DNA of 56,356 nt, filler included, from Streblomastix strix (Eukaryota): assembly GCA_008636045.1 (NCBI GenBank). It is 2 parts of 2 records of this genome, joined end to end, with 100 filler letters (N's around TTAATTAATTAA, not from the genome) between each part and the next. Parts side by side here need not be neighbours in the genome. Positions count along the whole stretch, not along the records: positions 28,233 to 56,356 come from SNRW01000132.1; 1 more part is not named here. One strand, given 5' to 3'. Positions within the stretch are counted from its first letter, which is position 1. Each line of letters begins with the position of its first letter. The notes beneath the pieces were generated by a model that had not been told where the DNA came from, searched no databases, and was given only the letters and a program-made list of their open reading frames with translations. Shown piece by piece: positions 1 through 55,754 of this stretch. Position numbers and translations under genes: made by a program.

Positions 1-564
1 CCTATATAGATTTACCAGTTACATCAGAGCAATCAAAGGGGATTAATTCTTCTGTTGACACAAAGAAATGAGTTTCATAATCATAAAGTATGTCATATGA
101 CTCTGAATCAAACACTCCAACAAATGGAATCTTCAATTTCTTTTTCTTTATCAATATCAGTTCATTGCTTATTGGATCATATTCTTCTTCATATTCAACA
201 GTAATTAAACCTTCATCATCCCAACCAAGGAAGATCTTCATATTAATATCTCCAACTTCATGAAAACATCTTTCTGAATCATCTTTCTTGCAATATTTGC
301 CATATTACATCAATGGACTATATTTGCTAATAGCTTTCTTGAATGTCGTTGTGTTGCCACTATAAATAAAACCGAAGACATAACCCTGTTTAAATTTGAA
401 ATTATTTAATAAATATAAATAATGAATTAAATAATTAATAAAAATAATAAAAATAAAATAAACCTAAAAAAAATAAGTGCACACCCTTGAGGATGACTCA
501 TGATTTATATTTGATGTGATTTTGATGACATTTGCTATGAAGATACAATTTAGTCAGACTTATC
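1..564 (-). CDS. Partial multi-exon host gene, hypothetical protein (runs off window start)
   Basis: With TAA=Gln the frame of ORF 2..241 extends to an AG acceptor at 386-387 (GYVFGFIYSGNTTTFKKAISKYSPLMQYGKYCKK...). An AT-rich intron lies at ~386-484 and a probable small exon at ~485-564. No family recognised. Confidence 0.5.
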
Positions 565-17190: not shown

Positions 17191-17285
17191 GGCCACATCA
17201 TAGATCGGATGCCTGTTCGTGCACCGGCCACATATAGAAGCAACAATGGTATCTCAATAAAGAAATGAGATAAGGAATTAAGGGG
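17191..17285. repeat. Element 2 5' inverted terminal repeat
   Basis: Reverse complement of 10117-10209; followed outward by a ~42-nt unique terminal extension to 17327. Confidence 0.9.
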
Positions 17286-31749: not shown

Positions 31750-34700
31750 ATGTCTCAAATAACTGATGAGTATATTTTGGAACTATTGAGCCAAAGTCTT
31801 ATACCAGACAACACAATCTAAAAAGCTGTTTATGAAAAACTTGAAATTGTTTGTCAATTTATTATCAAGTCTAATATATTTATTCAAATAATCTGGTTTT
31901 TAATGCAGTGGAAAAAATAAAGTGGATTTTTCAAATCGCTATTGACTTTTGTGATGAACGATGCCATCAATATTGATGTGCGATTCATAGGAGCATTAAT
32001 ATTGAAGAATGAAACCACATCTGTGTGGGCAGCATCTGAAGATAAATAAAGCAAGAAGTTTGTAAAAGACAACATAATCACATGTATTGTTCTTGCACCA
32101 GATAACATAAAGAAATCATTGTGCAACGCTCTTTAAAATATTGCGTCGTTTGATTTCCCAAAGAAATGGAAGAACTTCACTGAATTGATTAATTAGCATC
32201 TGATGAATGATAATATTTCATCTATTATTGGTGGAATGCGCTGCCTGAATTCGTTAGCAAAAGTGTTCTGCTTTACTATTAATGAGCCTGGGTGTCCGTT
32301 TCATGAACTGATTGGTGCTTGTCATGAGCGTGTTTATGCAATAGTTGAATAATCAATGTAAGGTCAGTAACTGGATGATGTCAGAGGCCAAGTGATTCTA
32401 TTGGCATTGAAAATATTCTTCAAGTCAATACGAATGAGTTTATGTGAACATGTTATTAAACCTGTTGTATTTTATGGATGGATGAAAATTCATGATTTTA
32501 TCCTGAATCTGAGTGTTTAAGAATAACCAAATGTTTGATTTTCAAATTAAACTATTAATTATTAATTAATATTTAAAATAATATTTTACTTCATTTTTTA
32601 TTCTTTTTTAATCATTTATCTTTGTATATACAGTCATTGCTTATAGATCTTACTAAGAATATCTGGTGGAAAGTGAAATCCAATTGTTTGAGTAATCTGA
32701 GTTTAATATTTTCTAAATATGGAAAACCAAATACTCCAAAATAGCCAAATAGAGATTTCTGCATATTGTGGAATGCAACATATTCTAATCCTTTTCTCAC
32801 TAAGATTTTGGATTAGCAATTAGAATATCACAGATTGAAATGTTTGACTTAACAAATTTTTTTATAAACAATTTAATAATTTATTTGTTTAATATTTTTA
32901 TTAATTTATTTTTTTACTTATTTTATTTTTTACTGTAGAATAAGCACAACTTGCTATGCTCTAAACCAACATTAATGCCTCCGAAGTAGAACTAATGGAA
33001 TGCGGACCATTAATACCAATTAAAATGCTTTGTAGAAGTATGAACATATTGATGAATGGATGTCTGCATAGATGCACATTTCTTCCATCTATTAAAGATA
33101 AGCTCAATCCACTGATAAAGGAGATCGTATTGTATGAATTACGGCCAAGTGAATAAGAATTAGAGCTTTGGTAGTCTGCATTAGAAGGAGGAGCATAAGA
33201 GCAGAGAGAATATTGCCTCTGCGAACTTGATTCTGATATAATGGTTGATCAGCCAAAGTATTAGGCTGATTCAATCCTTACAACAATCGCTAATATTTGG
33301 AGCAGATCTGGAATTGCTTCAATCACAAATGTGATATCAATTGAATTAGAAAGAATTAAAAATAGCTAAAATGCAGATACCAATGTTTAGCAAAGTTTAA
33401 TTGCATGGATGGACAAAGATGTTATTATCTATGCATTGGGTAAGACCAGTAAAGCATTGATCAACACACAAAGTATTGAAGTCTTAGAATAGATTTTATC
33501 CAATTTCATTATTCCTGAGTTATAATCGAATGAGTTGAGGTTGAGAATGAGAGCGATGTGGTGTTTGGGAGAATTTATTGCAGAACAGCCGAAGTACTAC
33601 AAAAATGAAAACGAATAACAAATTTAAGAAACTCAAATTTAATCATAAATCATTCCATAAAATACATAAAAGAAATATTGGTCATCCGAATTCACTAACA
33701 ATGTCGTTGTTGGTGTCATTGGAAATCTGACCAATCCATTCCTCCCTGTTCGCATTCATGCACTATTAAGTACAACTAAACTTCTCAAATTAGAATCACA
33801 CTCATCATCTTATAATCAGCAATAACTAAATAATCCTTTCTTTCCAAATCAACAAATCAATTCCAATTCCAATTCCAATTCCAATTCATTATAAGTACAA
33901 CCAGACCGTCACCATCCCTTACTTAGAGAATCATGCGGCATCCTCTTCAGAATAACAATGGAATAAATGAGTGCAACAGGTGGTGGAGCAGAAGAGCTCT
34001 GCCAAGCTGTTGTTGATGTCGTTGCTGAATTCGGGTAAATTGTTCGACCACACACTACTTCAATGTTCATCACGCTCTTGGGTTCACTTATTGAGTGCTT
34101 GAGAGATGCACACAAGTGGGATCTGAGCATTACTGGTGAAATTGAGTAAATAATTCAGTTGAGTTCAGATCATGAACAAGATGCATAATTGAGATCTCCA
34201 AGACTCAGAGCTGCTATGCTTTCAATTGAGGAGAAAATTGTGCGTGAAACTGCAGAGCATAATCCTAATCTATTGAAGTTATTAGAACATTTGAAGATTG
34301 ATAATGGAATAGTCCCAACAAAAATTCTGTAATTGTCGGAGTAATTCCACAATTTTATATTAAAATAACAGCAAACTCAATCAACACCAGAAACAATCAA
34401 TCAAATCAAATAAATATAAGATTTTACTCAATAAATTATTTCAGATATGCAAAAGAATTACATCAGGTAAACAATAGTTAAACCACAGCTCTGGGAAACG
34501 CTTATTGAAATGACTTAAATAATTGATACATTTAATTCAATTCAACAAATATAAGCTGAATAATCAGGAATGAGTAATATTAATATTAACTATTTATAAC
34601 CTTCATAGATAGGAAGTTTGATTGATGAATAATCAATGAGCGAAGCTATTATTTCAGTTCTACGTACCTTTGCTAATATTTCAACAACATAACACCACAA

Positions 34701-37002
34701 TTCATCATCATATACAAATCAGCCTAATGAATCATTTGCAATATATCCAATACAGGATGCATTAAGTCTTCTAATCAATTCATTCAGACGTGATATCCCA
34801 ATGATTCGAGCCTAACTTTCATTATTTTTTCCATTCTATAAACTGATCTCTCAAATATTTTTCATTTAGGGCGAAATTGAGTTAAGTCAATTGCTACAAT
34901 TAACTTCTCCTACAAATCCAACACCTACAGCAATCAATCTTTGTGAATCTTTAATACCAATAATGATTTCTGATTAATAATTAATGATTTAAAATGAAGA
35001 AAATGAAAGAAAATCATTTATTGATTCTAATTCAATCATGATTTCTGATTCTGTTTACAATGTATTAGGCGAATTTGTTCTGAATACAAATACAATTGTA
35101 CCAAAAGTTGTTTAGTCGACTTCTGATGCAAATCAGCCAGTTCTAAATTCCATAATACAATACATACTCCCATTCATGAAAATAGCATCAGCAGGGTCAC
35201 TATCAATGAAATCTGATCTTCTTGAAGATACTTATGATTCATATCATGTACTTCTAACTTGAACTCCACAATTTTTACTGAATTTCCCAACTTTTGCTTT
35301 TCCTGCCCATCCAAATTGCATCCTCTATGATTTAACTGGGGTTTCACTTAGATATATTGTCGATACGGATAGTATCCAAAACAATGCTGGTTTAAATCTA
35401 TTACAGGATATTTTATGTGCTTCGTTTATCATTCGCACATCTAATGAGTACAATTGAGCCTTAAATTAGAATACAGGAAATTAATAACAAATCAATTCAA
35501 GGTCTCCAATTGATCCTTTGATTCCATATATAATAGCTACGATATGGTGGAAATTATCAATTTGTATACAAGATGCGAGATAGATAATTAAAGATGAATG
35601 GGTTGCAAAAGAAAGAAAAAAGATAAAGCTGATCTAAAAGTAATAAAAACAATCAAATAAGAAGAAAGGATCAAAAATAATTCAAAAATCAATGTTTGAA
35701 TAAGGACAAAATATCGAAGCAAATTAAATCACTAGTTCTCCTGATCTTAGTTTAAATGCTCTAATATCTGAAGTTGTAAAGCAATTCCCATTTGGCGGAA
35801 TTTTACTTACAGATCTTGCTATGGTTCTAATGTCAGCACCAGAATCTTCAATCTCATTTCTTACTGAAATCTAACGAAATATTCAATTATCCCAATCTGA
35901 TTAAAGAACACCAATAGTTCAACTCTGTTCCAACACTTCAATTTCACTTACTAGTTATTTCTAAGTTATTTTTGCTTCTCACATGCAGACGCTAGCACAG
36001 AAGAAATATATGTCACTTTCACTTATATCATTATTCTCACTTCCTGGTGAGATGTTTGTTCCATCTGAAGGAAGTGATAATGGTAGTGTTGGAAATATAG
36101 AAATAATGAAGAATATTATAGTTAAAAGTCTGGAGATATGCGCTGGACTTGAATAGGATGTAAATAACATTTCAGAAAAGAATAAGAAAACTCGGTAAGA
36201 GAATCTTCTTAAAAAGATAGTTTTCAGTGAAAGAAACAAATTAAAATTGTAGACAAAAATGCAAAATAATACAAATACATAAATGAGATTTGATACAGAT
36301 AAAGCACCTAAATTTAATAATGCTAACGATGTTTAAAACTTCTGGAAGAATGAAGATGGACCTCCCGAACTAAAAGAAGAAGATTTTCCCATAAATGAAT
36401 CTAAAGTTGATAGAGATGGAGATGTAATAATGGATGATGAACATGAAATAGATAATTAATAGTAATAAGGATTTGACGATGATAATGAAGATGATGATGA
36501 GGAAGATGATGCTGAAAATGATGATGAACTATTTAAAACATAGAATGATCCCAAAACTGTGTACGAAATGTATATGAAAACTCTGCATGGCAAAAATAAA
36601 GATAAAAATAAAGATGAAATAGATGAAGGATATGATTAAGGCAAATATGATTCTGATGTTTGCGGGGACAATGATGGAAATGGATTCATTACTCTGTTTG
36701 ATGATGACTTTGATGATGATGAGGATGAAGATGATCAAAATGTAGAGTATCCTCCTTCAGTTGAAGAACTCCAGAATGCTTCCATTTTACTTTAATAGTA
36801 AAATAACATTATAAGCCCACATAGAATTGAAATATTTGATGATATCATGTATGCAGGACAGTTGTGGACCAGATTTTGTTAGCATCCATAATTATGTGCT
36901 CTTTTTGAATAAGCTTCAACGCAAATTTCCCCTGATGCAAGCAATGCAATACGAGTTATACTGGCAGAAGCATAGCGGAGAACACAACCTACTAACCAAT
37001 GA
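31750..37002 (+). CDS. Importin-7/8-like karyopherin beta (introns 31849-31908, 32533-32633, 32842-32938), with two in-frame TGAs
   Basis: IBN_N-like start (VRFIGALILKN...W), FDFPKKW, IWWKVKSNCL...SKYGKP, LRMRAMWCLGEF, LPVRIHA and an acidic C-terminal loop. Final TGA at 37000-37002; internal TGAs at 35260 and 35455. Confidence 0.85.
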
Positions 37003-37685
37003 GTGTTAAAATAAATATATTAATGATTTATTAAATAATCATCACTTAATACTTTTTTTACACTATTAAGATATTTGCTTATTATTTACTTGAATTATTT
37101 ATACATCTCGCAAATTATAAACATTTTGAAACTGTTTCGACGGAATTTAGTTTGTCTATAACATTTATTTATTAAAATTTCACATTAATTATTTATGAAC
37201 TCAACTCAGTCACGATGATCTTTCATCAAAGAAATAAACAGCTTTTTACACCGAAATAAGAACTAATATTCTACTCATTTGCTATTTATATAATTACCTG
37301 TATAATTTATAATTTAATGAATATAAACATCAACCATAACTCTTCAGGATACATCGGATATGAAAAAAATGAGAAACAACCCGCGTTTCGTACCAACAAA
37401 ACAATCAAAGAGAATAATTTATATGATTAAATTACAGGACTTAAATTATTCAAAAGTTTAATTGATACATATTTAACATTCTTATCGTTTTTATCGAGAT
37501 ACGCGCATACTTTTAAGAACGTCATTGTAATTCCATTCTTCGCATCTTTCATAATTTATATCTTAATTTATTTGTTATCTTCTTAAATAATAATTCACAT
37601 TTTTAACATTAAGTAATAATAATCTTGGAAGAATATATAATTTAAACTCATAAAAATTAAACTATCTAACATTCTCCTATTAATA

Positions 37686-40600
37686 ATGTTAATCACTTCG
37701 CAAAGCGATTTTTATGCATCAGCTGAGACAATATATCTATTGAACAGAGATTATACATCATAGCCCACACTATATATTAATGAAAACCAGCCTACCAATG
37801 AATATATAATAACAAACTGCACTTTCACCAACAGCAGAAATCAATTAGGAAATGGAGGTGCATTAAATATCCAACTAACAAATGGAGGATCAGCATCAGC
37901 TAAAAACGTTACGATTTCCGATTGTCAAGCGATCAATGGAGGTGCAATTTACGCAGAAATTCGCAGTCTTGGGAAACTGATCATAGAAGGATCATGCTTG
38001 ATATCGAACTGCACAAGTTAATAGAATGGAGGAGGAATTAATTGTATAATACTTGATATTGGAAGCACAGTCGATATAATAGGATCAGTGACTATATACA
38101 ACTGCTCCTCATCAGGCAATGCTGGAGGTCTTTATGTTTCAATGAATTCAGGATTATTCTAATGTAATAATATGTATGTATAAGAATGCAAATCACTGAA
38201 CAATGGAGGTGGAATCTATATTGATATTATTAATGGTGGTGAATTAATACTTGATAATGGATGTCAATTGATCTAATGCATCAGTGAGTAAGGGAATGGA
38301 GGAGCTATATACATTGATATTGACTTTGAACAGTAATCCCAATTCAAAATCAAAGATGCATTGATTCAATCATGCGAAGCTAAATATAATTCATAATCAA
38401 ATAGTCCAACTGGTTATGGAGGAGGAATCTTCCTTGTTGGTTCAGTTAACTTCGATGTATCATAAAGACTGCTGGATTTCCATGGCTTAAAGACGAATGG
38501 AAACCTTGCATCATATAATGGATAAAGCTTATATGTAGTGATGGCTAAAATAGATTCATGGTGCAAGTAAGGAAACTATGGTGAATATGTGAAAGGAAAT
38601 TACAGTAATAGTAAATCCAGTCTGGGAGAATTACAAGGTATTGCAACAAGCTTTGGCACCTTCAGTAAAATGACTATACAACAAATTTCAGCATTAACAT
38701 AACATCTTCAATTATTATGGAGTTAATCTGCTGTTGTAACTAAAGTGAGTGCAATTATTAATCAGAATAATATTGATGCACCTCTTTTATTCATAATTGA
38801 AGGACATGGAATGATATCCGGATAGTTTTATGTGAAGTTATTTGAGATTCGAGATAAAACAGAAGAAGAAATAGAGTAGGATATGAATGATAATAAATAA
38901 TCACTTTATAATAATAACTAGAATAATTCAATTAAAAGTTCAATTAAAACAAATTCATAATTAAAAAATGATAAGAATTCATATCATTGTAATGAATTTG
39001 AATTGATCTGGCCAGATAATGATGGTACCGGTTCACAAATTGCAATCGATGGATCACCACAAGGATAATAAACTGCTTCATTTGGAATGAAAGATGCAAA
39101 ATGGTACAATTATTAAAAGAAGTTATATGGAATTTTAGGGTCAAATGATGGTGTAACTTTCACTGGAGTTAAAGGAAAAATAAACAAAACAGTTTTATTA
39201 TAAACTCAAATTGAAAAAGAAACACATTTGGATTAAATAGTTGATGAATAACCAATTAAGCCAAAAGGAACTGGAATTCCAACTTGGGTCATAATTCTGA
39301 TTATATTGATTATACTATTGCTTGTATGTGTTATTATTACAAATGGGTTGTATTACTTCTTCCGATGGTGGAACAGCAATGAATAAAGAATTAAGAGAAT
39401 TAAATCAGATTTTGCTGAATTCAAGAACTAACATGAAAATAATAAATAACAACTACTTCAATACCCAGATACTAACAAAGAATAATTCTCGGGTAAACTT
39501 TTGAAGGGTTCTTCATTCCTATTTAAAGCTAAATCTTAAAAACAATCATTATAACATTAATCTGAGATTGATTAGCTTCAAAAAAAGGAACCATATCAAA
39601 AATTCCCTCCAAGTCCAATTCCAAATCAAATTCCAGAATCTGCAATTTAAACACCACCTCGTATTTAATAAAAATAAAATCCACCTCTTCATTTCTCTTC
39701 TCCGATTCATAATATTTCATCTTCTTCAAATATGCATCCACTAATTTCTCCAAATAAAGATACAAATACAAATGCAAATTCCAGCTAAAGATTGACTCAA
39801 AATAAATCATAATCAAAAATTCAATCATTGCATGGCGCTTAAAGTTTGTATATGAATCGTAGAAATGGATTGGGAAATAGTTAATCTAAATATATCCAGA
39901 AATAATAATAATAGAATAATTATATTCAAACTAATTCTAAATCACCAAATATTTCTTAATCAACTTCAAATATAATCCCTTCAAATAATTTAAATTAAAA
40001 TTAAAATTCATTTAAATCTATTTAATCAATATAAATATAATCACCTCCTCTAATTATTAAGGATTCAATGAAGAAGCCAACTCTTTTAATTAATAATATA
40101 GAAAAACAACCTTCAATATCAACAACTCCAAGTAATAATAAATAATTAGATCAATAATAATAACAATCTTCATTACCAATAAATCAATCAAATTCATCAA
40201 AACATCTCGATCTATCAACAAGTTCTGGTCATTCAAATACACTATCTAATTCTCGTCCGAATACTCCAAATGAATTACATTCATATACTTCTTAGCAAAG
40301 TTCAAGCTAATCTCAGTTAGCCATTCCTGCATAAATTAAAGCAACTCCACTCATCATCAAAGATAGTATGAACAAAACAACAACCATAATTCCTTCTGTC
40401 TAATCTTAATTAACCAAACAAACTTCAAATCCATATTCAATTTAAAGTTCATCTAATATAACACTACCATCCAAACCAGCATAAATAAAATCTCCTCCAA
40501 TAACAATAAAAGACAATTTATAGAAACCTCCATAAATTGCATCAAGTTAATCACATACTTTTCTTCCAACATCAATTTCAAGCATGAATTCATCAAATCA

Positions 40601-40862
40601 ACTTCATTCATCTTCCACAACATATAATATACATCCAATATCTTCAAGTCATAGTGCATCACATTTAGCCCTTCTTAAGAAATTAAATTCAAAACCGACA
40701 ACTATACAAAACAATATCCAGAATCCAATTCCTCAGAGTAAAACAAATACAAATCCGTAAACAAATCTTGCATAAAATAAACCTCATATTGCTCAACCAA
40801 TACAACTTGCTGCTCCGCCTCTTATTATCAAAGACACATTCAAGAGAACTGATGGAAATTGA
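37686..40862 (+). CDS. Pmp-like (GGAI-repeat, beta-helix) single-pass membrane protein with a long S/Q/P-rich cytoplasmic tail
   Basis: About 1058 codons open with TAR=Gln. Repeats NGGALNI, NGGAIYA, NGGGINC, AGGLYV, NGGGIYI, NGGAIYI, YGGGIFL. TM segment IPTWVIILIILIILLLVCVII at ~39276-39345. True start may be further upstream. Confidence 0.85.
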
Positions 40863-41210
40863 TTTTTAATGATTTAACTCTTTGCAAACATAAATCATTA
40901 CTTTTGATTTGACTTGATTTGATTTTATATAAAATTTTATTTTATTTATTTATCAGTATATAATGTTAGTAATTAGTAGAATTCAATTCATATAACCACT
41001 AGATTTCTTTATTAATGCTTAAATCTTACTAATAAAATTGCAAATTGTACTTTAACGTATTCTTTTTATCCTGATATAAAAAAAATTAAACATTTCCAAA
41101 AAAAGATTAAATTTTTTGTATATTTTTTTAAATTACGTAAATATTTTTGTATTAAGTGGAAGAGAACAGTTGCAATAGGTGGGAATGAATGAAAAAATAG
41201 ATCAAATAAA

Positions 41211-42016
41211 TCAAAATTACAACTATGGTCTTGTGTTGCTTCTGTCAATATAGAAGTTTAGTATTTGCCCTTCAGTTTTGATTGCTCTATAGTTGAAATT
41301 TCCAATATTTTAATTATTAATCATCTATGATTCAACTTCTTCATTTCCTCCTTCTTCCTCTATTTGTTCTATGCAGGTTTTCGAAAGAGCCAGCTATTCT
41401 GGGAAGAATGGACTATAATTTCTCCCTTAGCATAGTTCCCCAAGGAAATTGTAGATGTAATATAATCCATCATAGATCTCCTCATCTCCTTCCTCTTCTC
41501 TCCCTCCAGCAGTACTAATATATATGATTAATGATCTTCCATATCCAACATTAATTAGTTCGGCTTAAATTTATTTATCACCAAAGATCTGAAACCAATT
41601 AAGGCAATTACTACTTCTTTTTCTAATCATATATTGTTATTAATCTTTTTTTAAATTGGTGTGAAAGTTTTATTTATAATTAATAAGTTTAGAAAGTGAA
41701 TATATAATATTTGGAATTTAGATTATTTATTTAAATTTATTATTATTGCTAATTTGATCCCATAGGAAATTAAGACAATCAAAGACCTATGAAAGAGAAG
41801 CGGATAATTTTGATTATTATTAATGTTACGATTTATCTTCTCTTGATGTCTTATTTTGTTTATATGATGTTGCAAATGAAATTATAACTGATGATGCTTC
41901 TTCTATACTTAAATTTACTTATATTTATTAATAAATAAGAAAAGAAAAGAAATGAAGTAATAATAAATAGAAGAAAAAATAATAAATTAAAAATTACCTC
42001 CAAAGCAGTTGCCCAT
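41211..42016 (-). CDS. Lineage-specific hypothetical protein with N-terminal MGNC acylation motif (exons 42016-41998, 41902-41211; 236 aa)
   Basis: MGNCFG|EEASSVIISF...VGYGRSLIIYISTAGGREEEGDEEIYDGL...EQIEEEGGNEEVESQ. The GT-AG intron keeps frame and the gene ends in TGA. Confidence 0.8.
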
Positions 42017-42746
42017 TTCAATATTAGCTTGTGTGATTGAAGGTTACTATGATTCAAATTTTCAAATTAAATAAAAAATTGAAAATTAAACATTATTATT
42101 ATGATATCAAATAGAATAAAAAAAGAAATATAAGAAATAACAGTTGAAATATCGTAGAAAATTTTACAAAATATTTAGAAAGAAGTATTATTTTGGTAAA
42201 TATTGAGTTTAAATTAAATAATAAACTATTTTCTTACGGTTTAAAAACATGTTGTAATTAATAGAGAAAAATAAATCAATGTTAAACCAATGGATGGTGC
42301 ATAAAAGCGAATTTTTTGAAAAATAATTGTAAATGAATAAATTTTTGTAAAAAAATATTATATAAGATAAGATGTCGTTTAATAGCTATTCAAACAAAAT
42401 ATTTTATTGAATGTTTAGTGTTAAACAATGCTGGGCATGTGTAATGCTCGAATTTCTGCAAAATTTTTTGATTTGCAATATTTGCTTGAACTTGTAAAAA
42501 TTTGTGTCTTAAGTAACGGAATATAATTGAAAATTTATAATAAAGATTCAAAATGCGTTATTTTTATGTTATACAAACTTTGTGGTGTGAGAAAGGATAA
42601 ATTTTAAATTCTAGCAGTTTTATTTCGAAAATACAACAATTGTTCAAAAATTAAGATAAATTAATAAATAAAAAAAAGTAATAGAAATTAATTTTATTAT
42701 TATTATTTAAGAATATGACAATTTGTAATAAATAATAGATGAATAT

Positions 42747-45700
42747 TCAAAGAGTTGCATCCCCTACTAAATTAATAGTCATACTTACATTTTTATTTAA
42801 GCTCCCTCCAGCCAACTGCAATACACTGTTTTGAGTATATCCTATTTTAGCAATCAAAATGACAGTTTTTTCAAAATGCCCTGTTTATTATGGAGAGAAA
42901 CTCACAGGAAGATCTACATAAGAATTTGCTCGTATTGGAATGAAAGGATAGATTGTTGAAAAGATAAGTTTGTTGAATGAATTTAATTATTATGATGATT
43001 GTTAAGATGCTTGAAAATCAGATGGAACGATCAATGTTATATCATTACTGTATGGATTACAAATTCTTATTGTTGTTGTCTTTGCTTGCCCAACTATAAC
43101 AACTCCAAAATTCGTTGTTTTTTATTCAGAATATATTTCTTTTTATGGTAATTAATTTTGTTATTATAACAGTTAAATTTTATTAATTTTAATATTTTAT
43201 ATTTAATTTTATTATTTATTAGGAGTTGGTTTCTCGTTTGAAATTTAGTTTTATATTATTTATTTATTAGTATTTCTATCCAGATTTTTATCCTTATCTG
43301 CAATTTAAATAATTTATTATTATTCTATATTCATCTATTATTATTGATTTACAATCTAACTTGTACCATTAGATTATTTCATTTGTTTTATTTAATCTGA
43401 ATTTTATTGGACAAGTTGTCTAGGAGGAGAATCAATAGTTGTTTGATTCAAAAAAGAAGACTAAATTGTTGATGAGGGTGAAAATATCTGAGATGGTTGA
43501 TTTGAAGGTGAATTGGATAATTAATATTGTTTCTATTTTAGTTATTATTGTGCTGGCGATTGTAATTAAGGATACTTTTGTTATTATTACTTTGATTATT
43601 GTTGATTTAATTAAAGTTACAGATTTATCTGTTATTATAATTATGATTATTAATTACTTTCCAATTATGGATATACTTACTAATGATTGAGTGAATCAGA
43701 ATTATATGGAGGATGAATAGTTGATGAAAAAGAAGGAGAAGGAGAAAATGAATGTAAAGAAACTGGAGATTAATTTTATTATTCTTTTTGAAGCAAATCT
43801 TATAATTACTGTTGTTGGTATTATTGTTGCTGTTTTGGAATAATTGGTGTATATTTCTGATATTTTTATTTATTTATTTATAATTAGATATTTACTTGTT
43901 ATTAAATATCATTTTAATTCTGATTATTATTCTATTATTTATTTTCTATATTAATCATTGGAGAATTTGGTTTGTTTATTTTATCTTACTTATTTAAGTT
44001 CATTTTATTGCTGGTATTATTAGTTAAGCTTAATTTTGAGATGTTAGATGAAGAAGATGGAGAAGGAATAAGAGAATATTACTATTGCTATTATTGTTGT
44101 TATTACTGTTATTATGCTTAAGTATTCTATGAATTTACTGAATATGATGATTAAGATGGAGATGATTGAAATTAAGAAGAATTTAGATTGTTATTAAATT
44201 AAATTTTCTCTTTAAATGTATTTTCATCTTCACTTTCACTCTAACTTTAATTGTCATTATTATTCTCATCTCTTTTATTATTATTATTCTTTCTTTCCAC
44301 ATTCATAAGTTATTATTTATGGTTTTGTAATATCTGCATAAGTTATTGGGTAGATGTTATTGTTTATGGTTGATACTAAATATACTATGTAGATAGTTAT
44401 GATTAATATGAATATCTTGATGAAAACTAATTTTATTGTGATTATGATAAAGCAGATCGATTTGACAAACGTTAAGAGGATTATGGTAATTATTCATTAG
44501 AATATGGTAATTATTAATTTTAATTTAGTTATGAAATTGTATTGATGTTTTTATTAGACTTATCATTTGTATTATTAAGATGAGAATAAGAAAAAGAAGT
44601 GAATGGAGATGATTATGTTAATTATGTTTATTATTATTGTTGTTACTAAAGTTATTATAATTATAAAGGTAATGAAGTATTATATTTAGTTGAGTCATTT
44701 GTTTATTATTATTATTACTCTTATTATTATTCCATTAATTTGGAGGGTGGAACTGAAAGCGAAGGTAATTTTTAATTAGATTATTTATATTTAGAAGATA
44801 TTGATTATATTTGAGAATTATATTATGAAGAAGGTGAATTTATTAGAAATTATGGTTATTATGATTAGTTTTGTTATGATTATTGTTGAATTTCTAATGA
44901 TTGAATTTGCTTTGGTGGAGATCTGTCAAAAATAAATGGTGAGTTGTAAGCTGTAAATTACTGAATATTTTTTTTTTATTATTGTGGTGGAAATTTTACT
45001 TATTTTTCTACTTATTATTATTGGTTAATTTAATTATTATTTGTTTGCTAATATTATTAATTAAGTGAATTTGAAGATAAATTCTACTTATTATTCAATT
45101 ATTATTGTAATATTATTAATTCTTATTACTCTTTAATTTTGTTCAATTGTTCTAAAAAAATATTTTATGTTTAATTCTTATCTATATCATTATTCTAATT
45201 ATATAATTAGTTATAGCTTTCACTTTATTAATCATTATATGTATCATTCCATTCTTTATCAAACTGTTTGCTATTTAATTCATCATTATTTTAAATAGGA
45301 AATGAATGAATATATGTAGATTATGATTACTAAGTATTTTATTATTTATTTTATTCTTAAAATATTGATTATGAATATGATTAAAATTATTATTATGGAG
45401 TTAGTATATTTGAATTTGTATTTGGAGGATATGCAGATGATTTAGATATAGGATGATGTGATATATCATTGTTATCTAATGGTATTTGCGAATGAGTTTA
45501 TTAAGTCAATTATTATTACTGTTATTTTTCTATTTACTGTTGTAAATTAATCTCTTTCTATTATTACTGTACAGAAATCTAAGGAATAATTTATAATTTA
45601 ATATCATTTTCAATGCTTTTTGACAGTTAAATTGGAGAATGATCGTGTGAAAGAGAAGATTAAGGTAGAATATTTGATTGAGAAGGAAGTATTGACGATT

Positions 45701-48700
45701 ATTATTATTAATTACAATTCAAACGAGAGTGAATTTTGGAATGGGAAGATTTTTATTATTATTGAATTGAATATAAAAGGGCATTTTTATTGGTGTTAAG
45801 ACTTTTGTTTTTGATTTTGTAATAGTATATCTGGTGTTTATATTTGAACAAATTGGTTTTCTTTTTATTATAAAGGGTTACTATATGGAAATATTTATGA
45901 CTTATTATGAGTATTTTATTAATTATATTCTTCTACTTATTTTTATTCTTCATCATTTTCCAATTCAATATGAATATTTGCTTATACAAGATTTGGAAGA
46001 ATTGAACTTCCTAATATTTTGTTATAATTCATTTCTTTTTCTTTCTTAATTTATTAATCATTTACATCTGTTTATTAAATATATTTTTTATCTTTTTAAT
46101 CTTTTTTATTTTTCTTTTTTTCATTTTTTCCTTCCATTTTTATTTTCGTGATTTTTTCTTTATCTTATTTTTCTTTGTTTTTAATATTTGATTTATTTTT
46201 CTTTTTCAAATTTATTGACATAGATGAAGATGAATATGATGAAAATGATGATGAAGAAGATGATGATGAAGAGGATGATGAAGAAGAAGATTTCTATTCT
46301 TCTGATGATAAATATGATGATAATGACTAATGTGATGATGATTATGAACGTTTTCGAGATGAAAAATGAAGTTCATATGGAACTGAATTATTATTTTTGT
46401 GTTTATTCTTTTATTTCTTTAATTATTTCAATTTTTCCTTCTTTTTCTTCTTTTCATTTTTATCTTTTATTGAACTTTCAATATTATCATAAGGTTCATT
46501 CTTTTTGATTTTTTTTATTTTCTCCTTATTTTTCACTAATTTTGATAGTTCTTAATCATCTCCATCTTATATTTCTATTAATTTAAATTTTTTAATATCT
46601 TTTTCTTTTTCTGTTTGATCTCTGTTTTCTTCTTACTAAATTTTAATTTTCTCTTGCAATACCATATTGCTTAATATACTCTTTATATCCGTTAATGCAT
46701 TTTTAGCTTATAATCTTTATTTAATTAGTTATTATTGTTTTTCTAATTTTTCTCTTTATTTTCGTTCGTTTTACTCTTTTATTTCATTTTCTCTTCTTAT
46801 TTATTCTTCAATTTTATTTTTTCCCTAATTTTCCCATATTTTTCTGTTTTCTTATTCCTATTAAAATCTTTGCTTTTATTCATATTCATATTCTTATTTT
46901 TTTTTATTTTCTATATTTTTTTTAATTAATTCTTCTTATTTTATTCTTTCTTTTTCTTTTTATTCATCTTTTTATTATTCGAATTCCATTTATTATTATT
47001 CTTATTTCTATATCATTTACTTTTACTCATTATATTATTTATCATTTAATTCTTTCTGTTATTCAATTTATTATTATTTAAATAACTATTCTTCAAATTA
47101 TCTTCCAATGTGTTGATCTATTTGTATTTAATATGATGGAAGCGCTTTTGTTGATGACAAAGGGGATCTTGAATGTTTGTGTGGATTAGATTCAGAATGT
47201 TTATGCTAGTTTAAATTTGTAGATGATTAATTCAAAATTGATGAATCTGAATCTGATAAATTCGAATGGATATGTTTGTGTTAATGATTATTCTAGTTTG
47301 AGTGATAATGATTTTTGAATTTCTATTTTTGATTTTGTTTAATAGGTTGTTATGGTAATGATTATGATGTAGATAAAATTGAAGAGATCGATTATAATTA
47401 TTCTTCAGATTATTCTTATGAATGTGAATTTTATGAATTAAAAGATTAATCTGAAATTTGAGATTATGTTGAATGATATGAAGAAGGAGATAAAGAAGAA
47501 TAATGATCAATTGAATGATGTTAATATTATTTCTATTTATTGTTTTAATTATATTAATTATTTAATTATTTCTTTAATTTAGATTGTAATTGAAAAGATG
47601 ATTTATTTGGAGAATTGGAGAAAGATTATAATTATTATGTTATTTATAACTGCTGTGAGTTTAATGTTTATTATTCATTCCCAATTTTATGATGTTTATT
47701 ATTATTATTAATTGAACGTTATGGTGTTGGTGAATTAATATGAATGATTTATTGTTTTTATTTCTTTTTCTAAATCTTTGATTTTTCTTATTTTTTTTAA
47801 TTTAATTTTAATGGTAATTCAATTTCTTGGACTTATTCATATTATTTAACTATTTAGACTAATGTATTTGTTTAGGTTTACTAATCAACATTTTATATTT
47901 ATTTTTGATTTTGATTTTGATTTAATTATTTATTTTAATTTTATTAATATACATCAGATTTATCAGAATTCAATGATTTTTATGAGTAATTCTATGAATT
48001 AAATTATTACTAATATTATGATTATGAAGCTGGAGTTAATTATGAAGGAGATATCAATGGAAATGATTAAGGAATGGGAATATTTGATGAATTAGGAATT
48101 ATTTGCTATTATTATTAAATTTAATTATTCTACTGTAAGTTGTTTTTTTATGTTTCATTTAAATTTTGTTTATATATCTGTTATTATTCAATATATTTGT
48201 TATCTATGGAATGAGTAATAGGAAGTGGAAATTCAAATGTAACATTTTCTGATGGTTTGATATTGTTGATATTATTTTAAATATTATCTTAATTAATATT
48301 TTCTTTTTAATTGCTTTTTGAATTTTAGCGATCATCTTTTATTAATTATAATTCCTATTGTTGTTACTATTATTATCACATTAATTATTCTAATTACGAT
48401 TACTTTAATTGTTCTAATTACTATTATTTTTATTATTCTAACTATTGTTACTTCAACTATTCCAATTATTGTTACTTTAATTATTCTAATTATTGTTACA
48501 ATTATTAATTTTTCTGTTCCAATTTTTCATTTATATTTTCCTTATCATCATTTTTCTCCTATATTTATTATTCATCCATAACAGAACTGCTATTATCAGA
48601 ATCATTCTCATGTTCTATAACAACACTTTCTTCATCATCTCCATCATCTTTATTATAATTGATCACAAATGGATTGAACAATGCACTTGTATCAAACTCA

Positions 48701-51309
48701 TCATACATTACAATATTCAAATTATTATTTAGATCGGCTATTGTTATATCATCAATAGTATTCAAAATATTTGTTTGTAAAATGTCGTTATCATTACTTT
48801 CAACATCTTCATTGTTTTCGTATTTATTGATCGTTATATCTTTTAATTTCTAATTTGATTGTTAATTTTCTTTTAATTTCTTCTTTTGCTTATTTATCTT
48901 TTCTTTCATAATTTTCTTATCTTTTGAATTTGGAATCTTTTTCGTGATTAAAGAAAATTTTCCTTTTACAAGAACTGGAAATAAGAGATTGTGATTACCA
49001 TTAATATTAATATTATTATTATTATTATTATCAATTTATTATTATTATTTATTAATCTTCTTCTTATTATTATTCTGATTTTTATTATCAATTTATTTTA
49101 ATTTATTTCTGACAATTATATCAACATCATCTTTTGATGGAACATATATTCTCACATTAATATTAATTGTTTGATTCGGTTTTAAGATGAAATGGTGTGG
49201 AGTGATTTATATGAGATTGAAATCGTAATTATTGTTAAAATTTATATCAGAAATACTATTTAAATTAACTTTGCTGTTTGAATTACTCTTATAAGCACTA
49301 TTAAAAATTTATTAATTATTCTCGTTATTCATATTCTTTGTTAATGAAGGAATAAATGAAGGTGTGAATCTTTCAAACATTAATTCATTTTTATTATTTT
49401 CAAAATTGTTAATAATGAGAGGATAAACATGATGAAATGAATTTTAATTTTAATTTTTGTCAAGAATGTTGTTATTAGTATTGATATTGATGTTCATATT
49501 GTATTGATGAGATGAAAATGTATTTAATGTTTGATTTAGTTCATTATTTTTATTTTATTTATTTTCTTCAATATCCATAATTTAATTCTACTTATTTTTC
49601 ATTAAATTACTATATTCATCATAATATCTATCATCAATCATAGCTATTTATCCCAATCCAGATGTAATTCCTTCAACAGTATGAGTTTACGAATTGTTTA
49701 CTATAGGTAAAATTCTTTCTATCATATGCGTTCTATGATATTTATAAATATAATTATAATCTTTACTCTACGTTTCTTGTTCCTACTAAGTTTCTTCATT
49801 TAAATTATCAAGTTATTTTTCAATCTATTAATCATTATCATTTAAATTAGTAACATTTTCTATCTATTATATCTCATTTTACAGATATCCAACATTCACT
49901 TGCCCATAATCCAATAAAAGTGGAGCGCAATTAGGAAGGCCGAGGTTTGATTTCCCAATGATTGCGCATATTGGAATCAATTACTGATATTATTATGATT
50001 GTCTGATTGATTGAGAATGTAAAAATGAAGGCAAGTTTTATTCCTTTCCATAATCTTATTTAAAAAATTATATTTATTATCATTCTATATTATCATTTAA
50101 TGTATTATTATTATCATTATCTTGTTCTAAACTAACATTAATCACAAGCATAGCAGTTAGAATAGAGAATGGAGTGTAAAATCGAGATTCATTCGCATTT
50201 AATGGGTTTAAAACAATATTTATTGGTTTTGCTTGATTATTTCTCATATTAAATTAGATTGAAGAAGAAATTGTTGGTTGAATTTGAGTTGTTAACTGAT
50301 GCTAATTTAGTAATTATTATTTCTATTATTGTTTTAATTTATTAATTTACTTTTTTTAAAGCTCATCTTAGACTAGATTTTCTGCAAATTGAATATTTAA
50401 TGTTGTGTTATTTAATGTTTAATTCCCCAATAAAGTCGAATTCAAAGTTTACGAATAGATATTTACATTTGTCTAAGTTGTTCCTGTCAAATTACTACTT
50501 ATATTCTAGTTCTAAATCTGTGATTCATCAAAGTTTGACTCACTTTCATCAATAAAACTGAGTTTTAATGGTGATTCACGTGACGGAATTAAGACTGGTT
50601 CTTTATATTCATTCTGAATTAATTATTATTCAATCTCTTCTTCAGTTTTAACTTCTCCAAGTTCAGCAAGAGCTGATTTTAAGCTGGCTAATGATATTCC
50701 TTCATCTTGTAGGAGTGCAGCTAGATGAGTGCTGCTTTATTAATTGGCAACGTGAGATGAGTAATAATCAAAAATATTTGAGGAGAATTTATTTGCTATT
50801 TGGATCTCTATAATTTCTTATTCGTTAGGTTAGTTATTTATATTATATTTTTATTATATAGTATTTTTAGATTATTTTGCTTAATTATTATCATGAAGAA
50901 TGTATGAGGAAGAAATAAGCTTATTTTATTTAATTCCTTCACTTTGGTTCGAAAGTAGAGATGATTTTAATTTAGATAGTTATGTAATAAATTATGCATC
51001 ATTATTATCCGGTTTATGAATTCTAACTGACTTAAGAGACGCAGTAACTGCAATAAATTGCGAAGTAAAATTATCATTAAAATTAGAAGAAGAATTCTGC
51101 AGTAGGAGCGTAGTAGATAATTGTGAAAGATGCGATTAACAACCAAAAAATAACATAAAAGGAGAATTAGAAATTTGCAAATTATATTCAACTTCAGATT
51201 GTGGAATGCTAGGAATCTGCTGATCTAAGAAAATGTGTCCACTGTCAATTTACGTTCCAGCAATTGTTGTTATTATAAGTGGAAATTGATTTAATTGATT
51301 TTTATTCAT
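42747..51309 (-). CDS. Very large Q/N/S-rich protein with ASH (ASPM/SPD-2/Hydin) Ig-like domains; Cep192-like C-terminus
   Basis: ATG at 51309. Frame is open apart from TGAs at 50082-50080 and 48378-48376 and a 1-nt shift near 45786. C-terminus NFGVVIVGQAKTTTIRICNP...IRANSYVDLPVSFSPQQTGHFE...MTINLVGDATL*. Confidence 0.7.
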
Positions 51310-51755: not shown

Positions 51756-52870
51756 ATGGCTGGGAAAGGTCCACAAAATTCAAACGTAACTAGCTCTGAT
51801 AACCCTCTAATCTAAAAGTAGGGTCCTTGGGCACAAGGTCAAAATTAAAGACTTGACCATGCGGATTATCAAACTGGAGGGCGACCAGGTGCAGTTGACA
51901 GGAATTCAATGCCATTTGGAGGAGGAAAAAAAGCCAGTGATGGAAGTCCTGCTACCAAAGGAACAGCTTCAGGAGGGGTTGAAGGTCATACATCTGGAGG
52001 TGGTGCTGACTCTTTCGATACTAAATACTCAAATATAACCAGTTAAGACAATCCACTGGGTGCACTGCTCAACAAAGCGAAATTTGGGTCTGTTTATGAA
52101 GATTAGAACGATGAAGATAACTGGTAGGACTAAGGATAAAATCAGCGTGTTGGTGCTGGAGGTGCTCCAATTGACAGGAATTCACAGCCTTTTGGTGGTG
52201 GTAAGTAATAATCACCTGGATAAGGAAGAGGAAGAGGAGGTGTGGAATTGATTATATTAAATTATTTTTTAACGATTTGATATATTTTTTTATATTAATT
52301 TAAAATAAATTTAATATATTCAAAGGAGGAGGTAAACCAATAGATCCCAAATACTCAAATATTAGTAGTTCAGACAATCCATTAGCATAAACATCAGGAA
52401 AAACAGGATGGGGAGGATTATACGGAGATGATATGAATTATGCGAATGATGAAGGAGGTGGATTAGTTAATTAGTATTAATAATAAGTGAGATCCGGAGC
52501 TGTAGATAGAAATTCATAGCCATTTGGAGGTGGGAAATAGTAATAATAGTAATAATCAGATGGATAAGGAAGAGGAATTAGTAAAAATACATAGCCAATT
52601 GACCCCAAAACATCGAATATTACCAGCTAAGATAATCCATTGGGTTAACCTACTAATTGGGGAAGCTATGCAAACAATAAATAAGGTAATACTAATGCTA
52701 GTAGTAATACTAATACTCCAATAGATCGAAATTCACAGCCATTTAGTGGTCCTAAGAAAGTTGGTGCTTAATAGTAGAGTCATTCAACTGCCGGAAGAGG
52801 GAAAAGCGATCCTAAATTTTCTAATGTAACAAGCGCGGATTCTCCTTTTGCTTCAGGAGGTGGCTGGTGA
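51756..52870 (+). CDS. Gly/Gln-rich repeat protein of unknown function (intron 52240-52325)
   Basis: Open frame with alternating motifs DPKxSN(I/V)(T/S)SxDNPL (5x) and (V/I)DRNSQPFGGGK (4x); ends GGGW-TGA. Confidence 0.85.
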
Positions 52871-53077: not shown

Positions 53078-55754
53078 ATGTAAGTCAGAGAAAAAGATAA
53101 ATCAATCACATTCATGAGCTTCAACTAAACCAACACGTATGTAACAATTTAGAATTACCAGAATCAAGTTACAGTTATTATTTTATTTTTCCGTTTTCTT
53201 AACGACGCGCTTGCGCAGATGCCTGATAGTTGGCACAAAGGCGGGATTTAAATTGTTCCGCACATAACCCTTTGAACATTGCACACAAGGCTGTATGCCA
53301 TTCCTCAAAGCGATTTTTTTAACTATATTTTATTGTTTTTTAACTTTACGTTCTGGGTGCCCATTTTTATAGTTCTTGACTATCCGATTCATATATGTGA
53401 AATGTTTTTCTCCACTTCCTTGCTAGCTGTTGTTTGTGCATCGGACGACCCTAAAGGTTTTAAACTCAGAAATTTTTAATTCTACTTTTTCACTGCCTTT
53501 TTAACTTCTAATATACAGAGGAAAATTTCAGCAAGAAAGTACTCTACCTATACAACACAAAAATAGATCACGTCATTTGCTTATTGCGCTTTGCTGAGGA
53601 TATTCATTCGGTAATTCTCAACTAATAGTCGTTTGCTTAATTTTTTGGCTTAAATTTAAACAAATTTCTCCTTTATTTCTTTAAAATAATATTTTTTATA
53701 TATATTTTTCTTTTTTTTATTCATTTAATTAGTCTAATAGTCGTTCTTAGAACATCTATAGTCATATACACACTTGAAAAAATTGAACCAATCTGCACTC
53801 TAGATATATATTTCAGTTTGCTTTCACATAAACAATGCAATATCCAATTTATAAACCAATTCTATATCCTATTTATTTATATTAATAAAATTATTATAAA
53901 TTTATTTTCTGTACTCATTGTTATATATCTCATAATGCAGATTAAACCTCCATTACTCCTGAAATACCAGCTCCTGGATCACCATCTTTCAGACCAAATA
54001 TTGCTGCTCTTTGCCCAAATAAGTTTGTTTATTTATATTTTATATTATGTTTAATTTATAATATTTTAACATTAATCATTAATATTTTGTATATAAATTC
54101 ACATCAATCATTAATTAATTATATATTAATCAGATCTCTCTTAGCATATCCATGCGATCTAACACGAGGAAATGTCTGTCTTGCGTGGTTTGGAGGAGAT
54201 GTATGATTTAAATTATATAATTAGTATTTATTTATTATAGCAATTTAGTATTTATTTCATATTTATTATATTATTAATTAATTTTTATTGTTTGTATTTG
54301 TTTGATTTTAATTATTGTATCAAATTGTAATCAGAGTGGAGGACCAGACAAAGGTATTAATTAATAATTAATATATATTTTATATTCAAATATATTATCA
54401 ATATTTTCAATTATCATATATTATTCTTTATCAATATTATCATTTATCATATATTATTCCTTATCAATATATACATTCATCTATAATATATGCAACTAAC
54501 TATCTAACTAATTAATTTCAATTATATATATTTATATTTCACACCAAATAGACCTCACTTCCTCAGACGGCAGCTCCGTAGGCCTAGGGGGTATTGGATC
54601 ATAATCTGGACCAGTACAATCAGGATAAGGACCATAATAATCATCATAATAAGGAGCTAGTAGTGGAAGTGGTGATTCACAGTTTGGAAACTACCATATA
54701 TTGGAAGCTCATGATCATCCAGTGTGTGCTCTGGCTTTTAGGAAGGATGGGAAGTGGCTTGCAACGGCGTCGGCGAGAGGTTTGTGTTGGGTTTATATTG
54801 GATTGTGTGTTATATGCAATATGAGTTGTTATATTGTATTGTGTTACATGTAATGTTATATAAAAATATGAATATAAAAGAGATTAAAATATTGTATTAT
54901 ATTTATATTGATTATTAAATTTATATATTCAATTCATAATATAACTATAAAATAGGAACATGCATTCGTGTGTGGGATACAACAACAAAGCAGAAAGTGA
55001 TGGAATTCAAACGCTCACACATTGGAAAACCAGCTCTCATAAGATCTTTATGGTATGTAATAGTAGTTTGGTTTTAATATATTATTATTTGCATATTTTT
55101 ATTATTAAATTTTTTGAATGTTAATATATATAATTTAAATCTCACTCATTTTTATTTCTCTATCTTTCTATTTATATTACACTTAATAATTAATCATTTA
55201 GCTTCTCAGAGGATGGTCAACTTCTTGTTGTCTCATCATCATCAACCACAATTCACGTATTCGCTGTCACTGGTGAGCACAAGTCTGACACATCCTTTGC
55301 ATGCATATATCTGAAGGTACATAATAATAGATAATATATAATATATTTGTTTTTTGATATGTTAGATGTAATATATAATAAATTTAGTAATATTTAATAA
55401 ATGTAGAATAAACAAAGGGATTTATAATGAATAATTCGTTTTATAAATTATAATATATTAGGAAGTCGGCATTACTGAAAACTACAACATTTCGTCATTT
55501 GGCTAAAACCAGAATATTATACAAGTTTGAATTGGAAAATTAAATTTAATATTTATTAATTGAAATTTAATATATCAATATATAATAATTCTAATTTATC
55601 AATATATAATAATTCTAATATTTAAATATATAATTATTCTAAGGTCGCATTTGCAGATGGAATGTACTATCATTTCCAGCTTCCAGATCCAACCTCATCG
55701 TCAAAGAAATGCGTTAAAGTTGAGATGTATAATTTGTTGAAGGCGACTATTTGA
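53078..55754 (+). CDS. PROPPIN family WD40 protein (Atg18/WIPI-like), 13 exons
   Basis: MSFNQ..CLIVGTKAGFKLF..QPF; EMFFSTSLLAVV; LLAYP; EAHDHPVCALAFRKDGKWLATASARGTCIRVWD..EFKRS; FSEDGQLLVVSSSSTTIHVF. All 12 GT-AG introns join in frame, including a 19-nt exon at 54335-54353. Confidence 0.92.
54395..54480. repeat. Intronic ~33-bp tandem repeat, about 2.5 copies
   Basis: Unit ttatcaatatt(t/a)tca(a/t)ttatcatatattattc(t/c). Confidence 0.6.

What the first reader, a model, noticed from the sequence alone, without database searches (positions are those of the whole stretch)
35260..50082. In-frame TGA codons inside otherwise intact host genes although TGA is the only stop: possible dual-function codon (all three stops read as sense)
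Seen: every complete host gene here ends in TGA. Yet the importin-7-like ORF has TGA at 35260 (LLT*TPQ) and 35455 (EYN*ALN), and the frame continues ~580 codons past the first to a family-typical acidic tail. The ASH-domain gene has TGA at 50082-50080 (NIE*QQI) and 48378-48376 (QLM*QQQ) with its conserved domain far downstream. A weaker fifth case may sit at 556-554. Established: context-dependent stop/sense codons occur in Condylostoma, Parduczia and Blastocrithidia, where TGA=Trp. Inference: all four contexts suit Arg. TAA>CAA, TAG>CAG and TGA>CGA would all follow from one rule, first-position U read or edited as C. Recent pseudogenisation or assembly error remain real alternatives, and the ASH gene also carries a frameshift.
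Basis: partly seen in the sequence, partly recalled or inferred. Interest (0 to 1): 0.9.

Follow-up and report, generated by a model that had tools for sequence, protein, structure and literature searches.

The report
Termite protist likely translates UGA mid-gene
A termite-gut protist already known to read two of the three stop codons as glutamine carries its one remaining stop codon, TGA, twice inside an importin-7 gene that stays conserved and is apparently transcribed on both sides, so it likely reads TGA as an amino acid (tryptophan predicted, untested) in the middle of genes, as some ciliates do.

Summary
The window is Streblomastix strix (TAA/TAG=Gln). All four TGAs are real and in frame. 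The importin-7 case is strong. Independently assembled DNA contigs carry both TGAs. A spliced, RNA-like contig set covers the gene on both sides, and its last-exon differences are 5 of 5 synonymous. A second strain differs only at third codon positions between the TGAs (5 of 5 listed). The frame beyond them encodes the family's C-terminus, and NCBI splits the gene in two at these codons. Introns, a paralog and plain decay fit poorly. The ASH gene is weaker: it also has a frameshift, one TGA may be intronic, the other sits at a Gln repeat position. The fifth site is not supported. The U-to-C/Arg rule is refuted (57 of 57 TAR codons unedited in the RNA-like contigs). Best reading (about 0.5): rare, position-dependent UGA sense codon (4 of 6,222 codons), as in karyorelict ciliates, Trp by precedent only. 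Not shown: TGA in mRNA or in a second strain, the residue, a genome-wide pattern. Main rival: lesions private to the sequenced cell.

The parts
31750..37002 (+). Importin-7 (Ran-binding protein 7) gene, four exons (31750-31848, 31909-32532, 32634-32841, 32939-37002), 1,664 codons when read through both internal TGAs
   Evidence: IBN_N E=5.8e-10; PDB importin-7 6n88 E=2.5e-18; exon join open except codons 1085 and 1150; introns 32533-32633 and 32842-32938 skipped by X2 contigs; first intron inferred from NCBI model P0001
35260..35262 (+). Internal TGA 1 of importin-7 (LLT*TPQ); NCBI model P0001 ends here
   Evidence: same letters in X1 contig
35263..35454 (+). 64 codons between the two TGAs, no Met, coding-like and under selection
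   Evidence: X3 contig 35303-35477: 5 of 5 listed differences at codon position 3, 4 synonymous, 1 D>E, a sixth not listed
35455..35457 (+). Internal TGA 2 of importin-7 (EYN*ALN)
   Evidence: same letters in X1 contig
35458..37002 (+). Importin-7 C-terminal part (HEAT helices, acidic loop, last helices) and true stop 37000-37002; NCBI annotates 35692-36999 as a separate 436-aa protein
   Evidence: family blocks beat 500 of 500 and 150 of 150 shuffles; P0165; X2 contigs 35765-36997 with 2 of 2 synonymous differences
42747..51309 (-). Long low-complexity Gln/Asn-rich gene with ASH-type Ig domains (start Met inferred); two internal TGAs and one frameshift
   Evidence: Cep192_D8 E=9e-9 and ASH E=6e-4 at the C-terminus, Cep192_D6 E=0.034 between the TGAs; OCRL ASH E=0.19
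50080..50082 (-). Internal TGA of the ASH gene (NIE*QQI); an in-frame 78-nt GT..AG candidate (50132-50055, GC 0.13) could remove it but scores coding-like
48376..48378 (-). Internal TGA of the ASH gene (QLM*QQQ) at a TAA (Gln) position of an 8-codon KQQQLEQL repeat
45783..45790 (-). Frame change in the ASH gene at or near an A5 run; a 109-nt GTTTGA..AG candidate (45724-45616) would restore the frame but scores coding-like
554..556 (-).
   Evidence: acceptor candidate at 535

Best explanation
Streblomastix strix, which reads TAA and TAG as glutamine, likely also reads TGA as an amino acid when it lies far from the end of the mRNA and as stop at the gene end, with tryptophan the predicted residue. 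Shown: the codons are in the DNA; the importin gene around them is spliced, conserved and completes the family fold only beyond both TGAs. Inferred from the ciliate precedent, untested here: a near-cognate tRNA-Trp(CCA) outcompetes a weakened eRF1 inside coding sequence, while eRF1/eRF3 wins next to the poly(A) tail. TGA would then be a rare codon (about 0.06%, roughly 1 TGA per 9 TGG), tolerated where it arises from TGG, TAA or other neighbours, and gene callers using table 6 would cut genes in two there. Odds: read-through as some residue about 0.5; Trp specifically about 0.3, with Gln-context leakiness the next candidate.
For: DNA: X1 contig matches 8,266 of 8,267 nt over 32400-40666, both TGAs included, flat depth, no second copy at 85% or more. 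Selection: X2 last-exon differences 5 of 5 synonymous over 2,454 N and 672 S sites, P=4.6e-4 if neutral; 2 of these lie downstream of both TGAs. Between the TGAs X3 shows 5 of 5 listed differences at position 3 (P=0.004), 4 synonymous; in the neighbouring PMP-like gene only 10 of 28 listed X3 differences are synonymous. Zero missense changes vs X2 caps random lesions at an expected 0.09 nonsense changes in the exon, P(2 or more) at most 0.004. Homology: two non-acidic blocks after TGA 2 beat 500 of 500 shuffles, the block right after TGA 2 beat 150 of 150; anchors on either side of the TGAs are 127 residues apart here and 132 in the family. No Met for 144 codons after TGA 1. Introns: 10 of 10 known or inferred window introns score intron-like (GC 0.09-0.22), 9 of 9 candidates tested over the TGAs and frameshift score coding-like. 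Rate 4 of 6,222 codons = 0.064% vs 0.042-0.12% in Condylostoma, Blepharisma, Parduczia (PMC4967479).
Against: No call shows TGA in mRNA or in a second strain: X3's sixth difference is unlisted and could be at TGA 2 (only about 3:1 against). The residue is not identified: family columns at TGA 1 have Trp 0 of 96 (Tyr/Phe 69 or 41 of 96 by register), at TGA 2 Arg 19, Ala 18 of 96, and the alignment over the TGAs is not significant (12 of 150 and 136 of 150 shuffles reach it); two automatic alignments placed the segment elsewhere and AlphaFold gave pLDDT under 50 over most of residues 757-859. 48378 comes from a Gln position, not Trp. The ASH gene has a frameshift that no codon reassignment explains, and this scaffold is full of decayed copies whose TGAs align to R, L, Q, F, W alike. 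Only 2 of 7 host genes carry internal TGA and the window was picked for them. The genome has been public and curated by specialists; the passages read describe only TAR=Gln.
Confidence: 0.5

Rival explanations
1. The TGAs are real stops: recent nonsense alleles of the sequenced cell (masked by other copies) or early amplification errors; the species' working alleles are intact.
For: The assembly is described as a fragmentary single-cell genome (PMC10703272); X1 may be the same DNA, so it is not independent; the ASH gene has a frameshift and 178 TAA codons one step from TGA in its first frame; decayed repeats abound; contigs drop rare alleles.
Against: Two nonsense changes in one exon with 0 missense changes in 2,454 sites vs X2 has P at most 0.004; X3 divergence next to the TGAs (3.4%, 2.2%) is like upstream (1.3%, 3.3%), so no local damage cluster; two of seven genes affected.
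Confidence: 0.22
2. Gene fission: the importin is expressed as two proteins, one ending at 35260 and one starting at Met 35692, as NCBI annotates.
For: Two NCBI models exist; both parts have RNA-like contigs.
Against: The 144 codons that would be untranslated hold the best family block of the region and show third-position bias; no AT-rich spacer (GC 0.24-0.37); the NCBI N-terminal model also invents an intron where X2 runs straight through.
Confidence: 0.08
3. Unusual GT..AG introns remove the TGAs (222 nt, 35248-35469, would remove both importin sites; 78 nt, 50132-50055, the first ASH site).
For: In-frame candidates exist; the 78-nt one has intron-like length and GC 0.13; GTAC donors and AAG acceptors occur in inferred introns of the ATG18-like gene.
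Against: All candidates score coding-like (-0.05 to -0.28 bits/nt vs +0.02 to +0.35 for introns); the importin one has GC 0.34, contains the third-position X3 differences and would delete 74 residues of a collinear region. Caveat: the coding model was trained on the same genes and the 222-nt candidate is at the top of the coding range.
Confidence: 0.08
4. Site-specific mRNA editing repairs the codon (A-to-I, UGA to UGG=Trp), as for stop codons in filamentous fungi.
For: Would explain conserved function with genomic TGA; stop-codon editing is published for ascomycetes (PMC11156358, search listing only).
Against: X2 shows 1 A>G among 5 last-exon differences, a synonymous one, so no widespread editing; only weak hairpins after the sites (-3.4 to -6.3 kcal/mol, no shuffle control).
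Confidence: 0.07
5. One reading: first-position U is read or edited as C, so TAA/TAG=Gln and TGA=Arg.
For: Arg is the commonest residue (19 of 96) in one possible column for TGA 2; a Q,Q,R code has been reported for some spirotrich ciliates (PMC10089648).
Against: 0 T>C changes in X2 over 248 U-first codons including 57 TAR; TGG aligns to family Trp; 48378 derives from TAA; CGA is only 6 of 48 Arg codons in the importin. TGA=Arg through its own tRNA is not excluded, only the unifying rule.
Confidence: 0.03

Closest known systems
Karyorelict/Parduczia code (NCBI table 27): UAA/UAG=Gln, UGA=Trp or stop (bioRxiv 10.1101/2022.04.12.488043; PMC4967479)
   Same: TAR=Gln throughout, TGA the only gene end, rare internal TGA (0.064% here; 0.12% Parduczia; 0.08% and up in karyorelict domains) in an essential gene under purifying selection, far from the terminal stop.
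   Different: There Trp is shown by conserved columns across many genes (and by MS and ribosome profiling in Condylostoma); here the residue is unresolved, only two genes are in hand, and the lineage is an oxymonad (Metamonada).
Amoebophrya sp. ex Karlodinium veneficum (PMC6394959)
   Same: Non-ciliate with UAR=Gln and UGA as both stop and probable Trp; alternative codons absent from about half the transcripts and from ribosomal-protein-type genes.
   Different: Thousands of aligned UGA codons support it; here four.
Published S. strix code (table 6; Keeling and Leander 2003, not seen, cited in PMC13002328 and PMC11687900)
   Same: TAA/TAG=Gln, genes end in TGA.
   Different: Treats every TGA as stop, which splits this importin into two annotated proteins.
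Condylostoma magnum (table 28) and Blastocrithidia (table 31)
   Same: All three stop codons used as sense; termination depends on position.
   Different: There UAA/UAG also terminate; Blastocrithidia has UAR=Glu and UGA only as Trp (PMC5304391).
Gln-context stop readthrough in yeast (PMC13192750)
   Same: UGA flanked by Gln codons in Gln-rich mRNA leaks most; both ASH TGAs are followed by Gln codons.
   Different: Leakage of about 8% in a yeast reporter; the importin TGAs have no flanking Gln, and two in series would leave little full-length protein.

Membership tests
Ambiguous stop/sense code, table 27 type | UAA and UAG encode Gln | tested here: met
   85 in-frame TAR in the importin; CAG/TAG exchange between window and X2; published
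Ambiguous stop/sense code, table 27 type | UGA terminates genes | tested here: met
   5 of 5 gene ends examined; importin end matches the family's last helix
Ambiguous stop/sense code, table 27 type | In-frame UGA fixed in functional conserved genes | tested here: inconclusive
   gene under purifying selection but the TGA itself seen only in the possible source DNA
Ambiguous stop/sense code, table 27 type | Internal UGA aligns to Trp or aromatic columns | tested here: inconclusive
   TGA 1: Trp 0, Tyr/Phe 69 or 41 of 96; TGA 2 variable; alignment not significant
Ambiguous stop/sense code, table 27 type | Spread over many genes at 0.04% or more of codons | tested here: inconclusive
   4 of 6,222 codons, 2 of 7 genes, one selected window; no genome held
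Ambiguous stop/sense code, table 27 type | Sense UGA depleted near the stop; short 3' UTR | tested here: inconclusive
   four sites lie 1,545-7,333 nt from the stop; contigs cannot show RNA ends; the relative M. exilis has a mean 3' UTR of 312 nt
Ambiguous stop/sense code, table 27 type | UGA retained in mRNA and translated (ribosome profiling, MS) | not testable with these tools
   no laid RNA-like contig bridges a site
Ambiguous stop/sense code, table 27 type | tRNA-Trp able to read UGA and altered eRF1 | not testable with these tools
   0 tRNA genes in the window; no genome
Importin-7/8 karyopherins | IBN_N domain and N-terminal HEAT repeats | tested here: met
   profile E=5e-93 for P0001
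Importin-7/8 karyopherins | C-terminal HEAT repeats, acidic loop, last helices | tested here: met
   present only downstream of both TGAs; model's best Foldseek match importin-9, E=3.7e-6
Selenoproteins (UGA=Sec) | UGA at a conserved Cys/Sec position with a SECIS element | tested here: not met
   Cys 0-6 of 96 in candidate columns; no SECIS family among 3 Rfam matches at E up to 1 in 31000-52000
U-to-C mRNA editing | T>C differences between DNA and mRNA at TAR codons | tested here: not met
   0 of 57 covered TAR codons

The most novel reading that the evidence does not exclude
Streblomastix strix has no dedicated stop codon: UAA/UAG are Gln and UGA is Trp (or another residue) inside genes and stop only at gene ends. 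It would be the first such code found in Metamonada, arising independently of ciliates, Amoebophrya and Blastocrithidia, and many of its 56,706 annotated loci would be halves of genes cut at sense UGAs.
Probability: 0.45. Interest if true: 0.85.

Novelty: new member of a known kind. Interest (0 to 1): 0.62.

Why it matters
Codes in which every stop codon is also sense are known from few lineages. An oxymonad case would be an independent test of the poly(A)-proximity model of termination and of whether TAR-to-Gln reassignment predisposes UGA to follow, in a group whose sampled relatives mostly use the standard code (PMC13002328). It would also mean the public S. strix proteome is systematically fragmented, as this importin already is, which bears on presence/absence claims for this amitochondriate. 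The decisive test needs only existing public data.

Tried and rejected
No RNA holder listed by record; X2 is treated as RNA only because it joins across two GT..AG introns. X2 has no cover at 33496-33642 and 34981-35764 (the latter holds both importin TGAs): no evidence either way. No reads or contigs were laid over the ASH sites or frameshift, so these rest on the window alone. No whole genome held, so no genome-wide codon test, tRNA or eRF1 search. Metagenome scan with the TGA region: 0 of 161 pattern matches confirmed; a retroelement motif found 1 unrelated JGI contig, 0 in GTDB, 0 in IMG/VR. No oxymonad ortholog recognised: 2 word searches gave only P0001 and one 21% relative; of 150 listed phmmer hits (437 found) I looked up 10, none an oxymonad except a fragment of this gene. 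ASH homolog search 0 hits. Exact look-ups of the TGA segment read as W, R, Q or C: 0 of 5 found. AlphaFold: low confidence at both sites. PDB search of the TGA region 0 hits. TGAs in decayed retroelements align to mixed residues, uninformative. +4 base does not separate internal TGA (A,G,T,T) from true stops (G,T,A,T,T). Selenocysteine rejected. One search's codon total used wrong frames for two segments; one search corrects it. Keeling and Leander 2003 and the S. strix genome paper could not be read.
Full report
Organism and setting. A protein search with the importin frame returned one relative, NCBI's putative Ran-binding protein 7 of Streblomastix strix, on a 28,124-nt contig, the length of the window's part after its N-runs (28233-56356). 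S. strix reads TAA and TAG as Gln (PMC13002328, passages); its assembly is described as a fragmentary single-cell genome with 56,706 loci (PMC10703272, passages).

The observation. In-frame TGA is rare against the other frames (2 vs 35 and 92; 2 vs 26 and 96). Over seven host genes or gene parts I could frame, 4 of 6,222 codons are internal TGA, in 2 of 7 genes, against 35 TGG. Five of five gene ends examined are TGA. The fifth site has a splice acceptor candidate 19 nt downstream and is dropped.

The importin is one gene. Joined across three introns (two skipped by X2 contigs; one from the NCBI model), the gene is 1,664 codons with stops only at codons 1085 and 1150. A profile of 96 full-length importin-7 homologs, taken by length from 152 proteins in hand, matches the N-terminal part at E=5e-93 and the part behind both TGAs in two non-acidic blocks that beat 500 of 500 shuffles each; the block just behind TGA 2 beats 150 of 150. 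In a scan of the whole frame the best places for the family blocks on either side of the TGAs are 127 residues apart, 132 in the family. Against this, the stretch between the TGAs does not itself score (136 of 150 shuffles reach it), the protein has about 300 extra residues whose place is ambiguous, and AlphaFold is unsure there (best structural match importin-9). NCBI annotates two proteins, one ending at TGA 1 and one starting at Met 35692; there is no Met for 144 codons after TGA 1.

The gene is alive. X1 (DNA, possibly the window's source) has one contig matching 8,266 of 8,267 nt with both TGAs and no second copy, so assembler error and a near-identical paralog are unlikely. X2, from another sample, joins across two GT..AG introns and so behaves as mRNA; it covers 3,128 nt of the last exon on both sides of the TGAs and differs at five places, all synonymous (P=4.6e-4 if neutral), two of them downstream of both TGAs. 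X3, from another study, has a contig over 35303-35477 with six differences; the five listed are all at codon position 3 (P=0.004), four synonymous. Only 6 of X3's 20 differences in its four listed importin contigs were shown, the table being cut to 40 of 100 rows. The sixth difference of that contig is unlisted and could be TGA 2 itself; a rough count favours a conserved TGA only 3 to 1. With no missense change in 2,454 sites, random damage or decay should give at most 0.09 nonsense changes in this exon, and two with P at most 0.004; selection of this window weakens that figure.

Splicing. In-frame GT..AG candidates exist for every site. A Markov model scores 10 of 10 known or inferred introns of the window as intron-like and 9 of 9 tested candidates as coding-like; I tested the most plausible candidates, not all. 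The importin candidates have GC 0.28-0.35 against 0.09-0.22 for introns (S. strix introns are AT-rich, mostly 60-100 nt: PMC1501061, passages and section 5). The 78-nt candidate over 50082 remains the most plausible.

The ASH gene is weaker evidence. Its C-terminal ASH-type domain is real, but it has a frame change near 45790, 48378 sits at a TAA position of a Gln repeat, and no reads were laid on it. It may be a damaged copy; decayed sequences in this scaffold carry TGAs of mixed origin.

Which residue, and how. Family columns at TGA 1 are Tyr/Phe-rich with no Trp and little Arg or Gln; at TGA 2 they are variable. The residue is therefore not identified. Selenocysteine fails on columns and SECIS. 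I commit to position-dependent sense reading, Trp by precedent: karyorelicts use UAR=Gln with UGA=Trp/stop (bioRxiv 10.1101/2022.04.12.488043, passages), Amoebophrya likewise (PMC6394959, passages); UGA use of 0.042-0.12%, near-cognate tRNA-Trp and the poly(A)-proximity model are from PMC4967479 (passages). A Q,Q,R code is reported in spirotrichs (PMC10089648, passages), and Gln context raises UGA leakage in yeast (PMC13192750, abstract and passages). Against the short-UTR model, M. exilis has a mean 3' UTR of 312 nt (PMC8767320, passages). The tRNA, eRF1 and termination steps are inferred, not shown.

In print? Five searches listed no paper by title on sense UGA in an oxymonad; passages of PMC13002328, PMC11687900, PMC5304391 and PMC8629427 give S. 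strix or oxymonads as TAR=Gln only; 11 supplementary files of PMC10703272 have no 'stop codon' or 'in-frame' (one archive unreadable). The 2003 code paper and the genome paper were not readable, and they or their supplements may mention such codons.

Verdict. The codons are real, and the importin evidence is hard to explain by chance damage, but the decisive observations (TGA in mRNA or a second strain, a residue, a genome-wide pattern) are missing. Read-through about 0.5, private lesions about 0.2. If true, a new member of a known kind in a new supergroup, testable at once with public data.

Noticed in passing
window 33800-35100 (+): The importin-7 is about 1,664 aa against roughly 1,000-1,100 for homologs; the model shows some ten extra helices, possibly added HEAT repeats, with no detectable internal duplication.
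   Followed up: partly
window 34330-35180 (+): NCBI model P0001 skips most of this stretch as an intron to reach TGA 35260, but an RNA-like contig runs unspliced over 33643-34980: the model is wrong there.
   Followed up: yes
window 2600-27600: At least four decayed retroelement copies with reverse transcriptase (PF00078 up to E=6e-23) and long overlapping frames; DIRS-like by recall, family not tested.
   Followed up: partly
window 37686-40862 (+): Intact 1,058-codon gene with GGAI-type repeats and a transmembrane-like segment, a multicopy family in the runs; differences in X3 are mostly non-synonymous (18 of 28 listed), unlike the importin. No Pfam family named it.
   Followed up: partly
window 53941-55753 (+): WD40 gene resembling ATG18/WIPI (name recalled; Pfam gives only WD40) with seven inferred introns, including a GTAC donor and an AAG acceptor; open frame, no internal TGA.
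   Followed up: partly
window 8977-11070, 17187-17580, 41211-41900: Several related gene fragments, some with many stops; 41211-41900 looks like an intact helical-repeat ORF without Pfam match.
   Followed up: no
window 28239-28897: Imperfect palindrome (68% over about 690 nt) right after the scaffold gap; may be an amplification fold-back or a low-complexity match.
   Followed up: no
window 51756-52500 (+): Gly-rich gene with internal repeated motifs (KYSNI..DNPL, DRNS.PFGGGK), function unknown.
   Followed up: no
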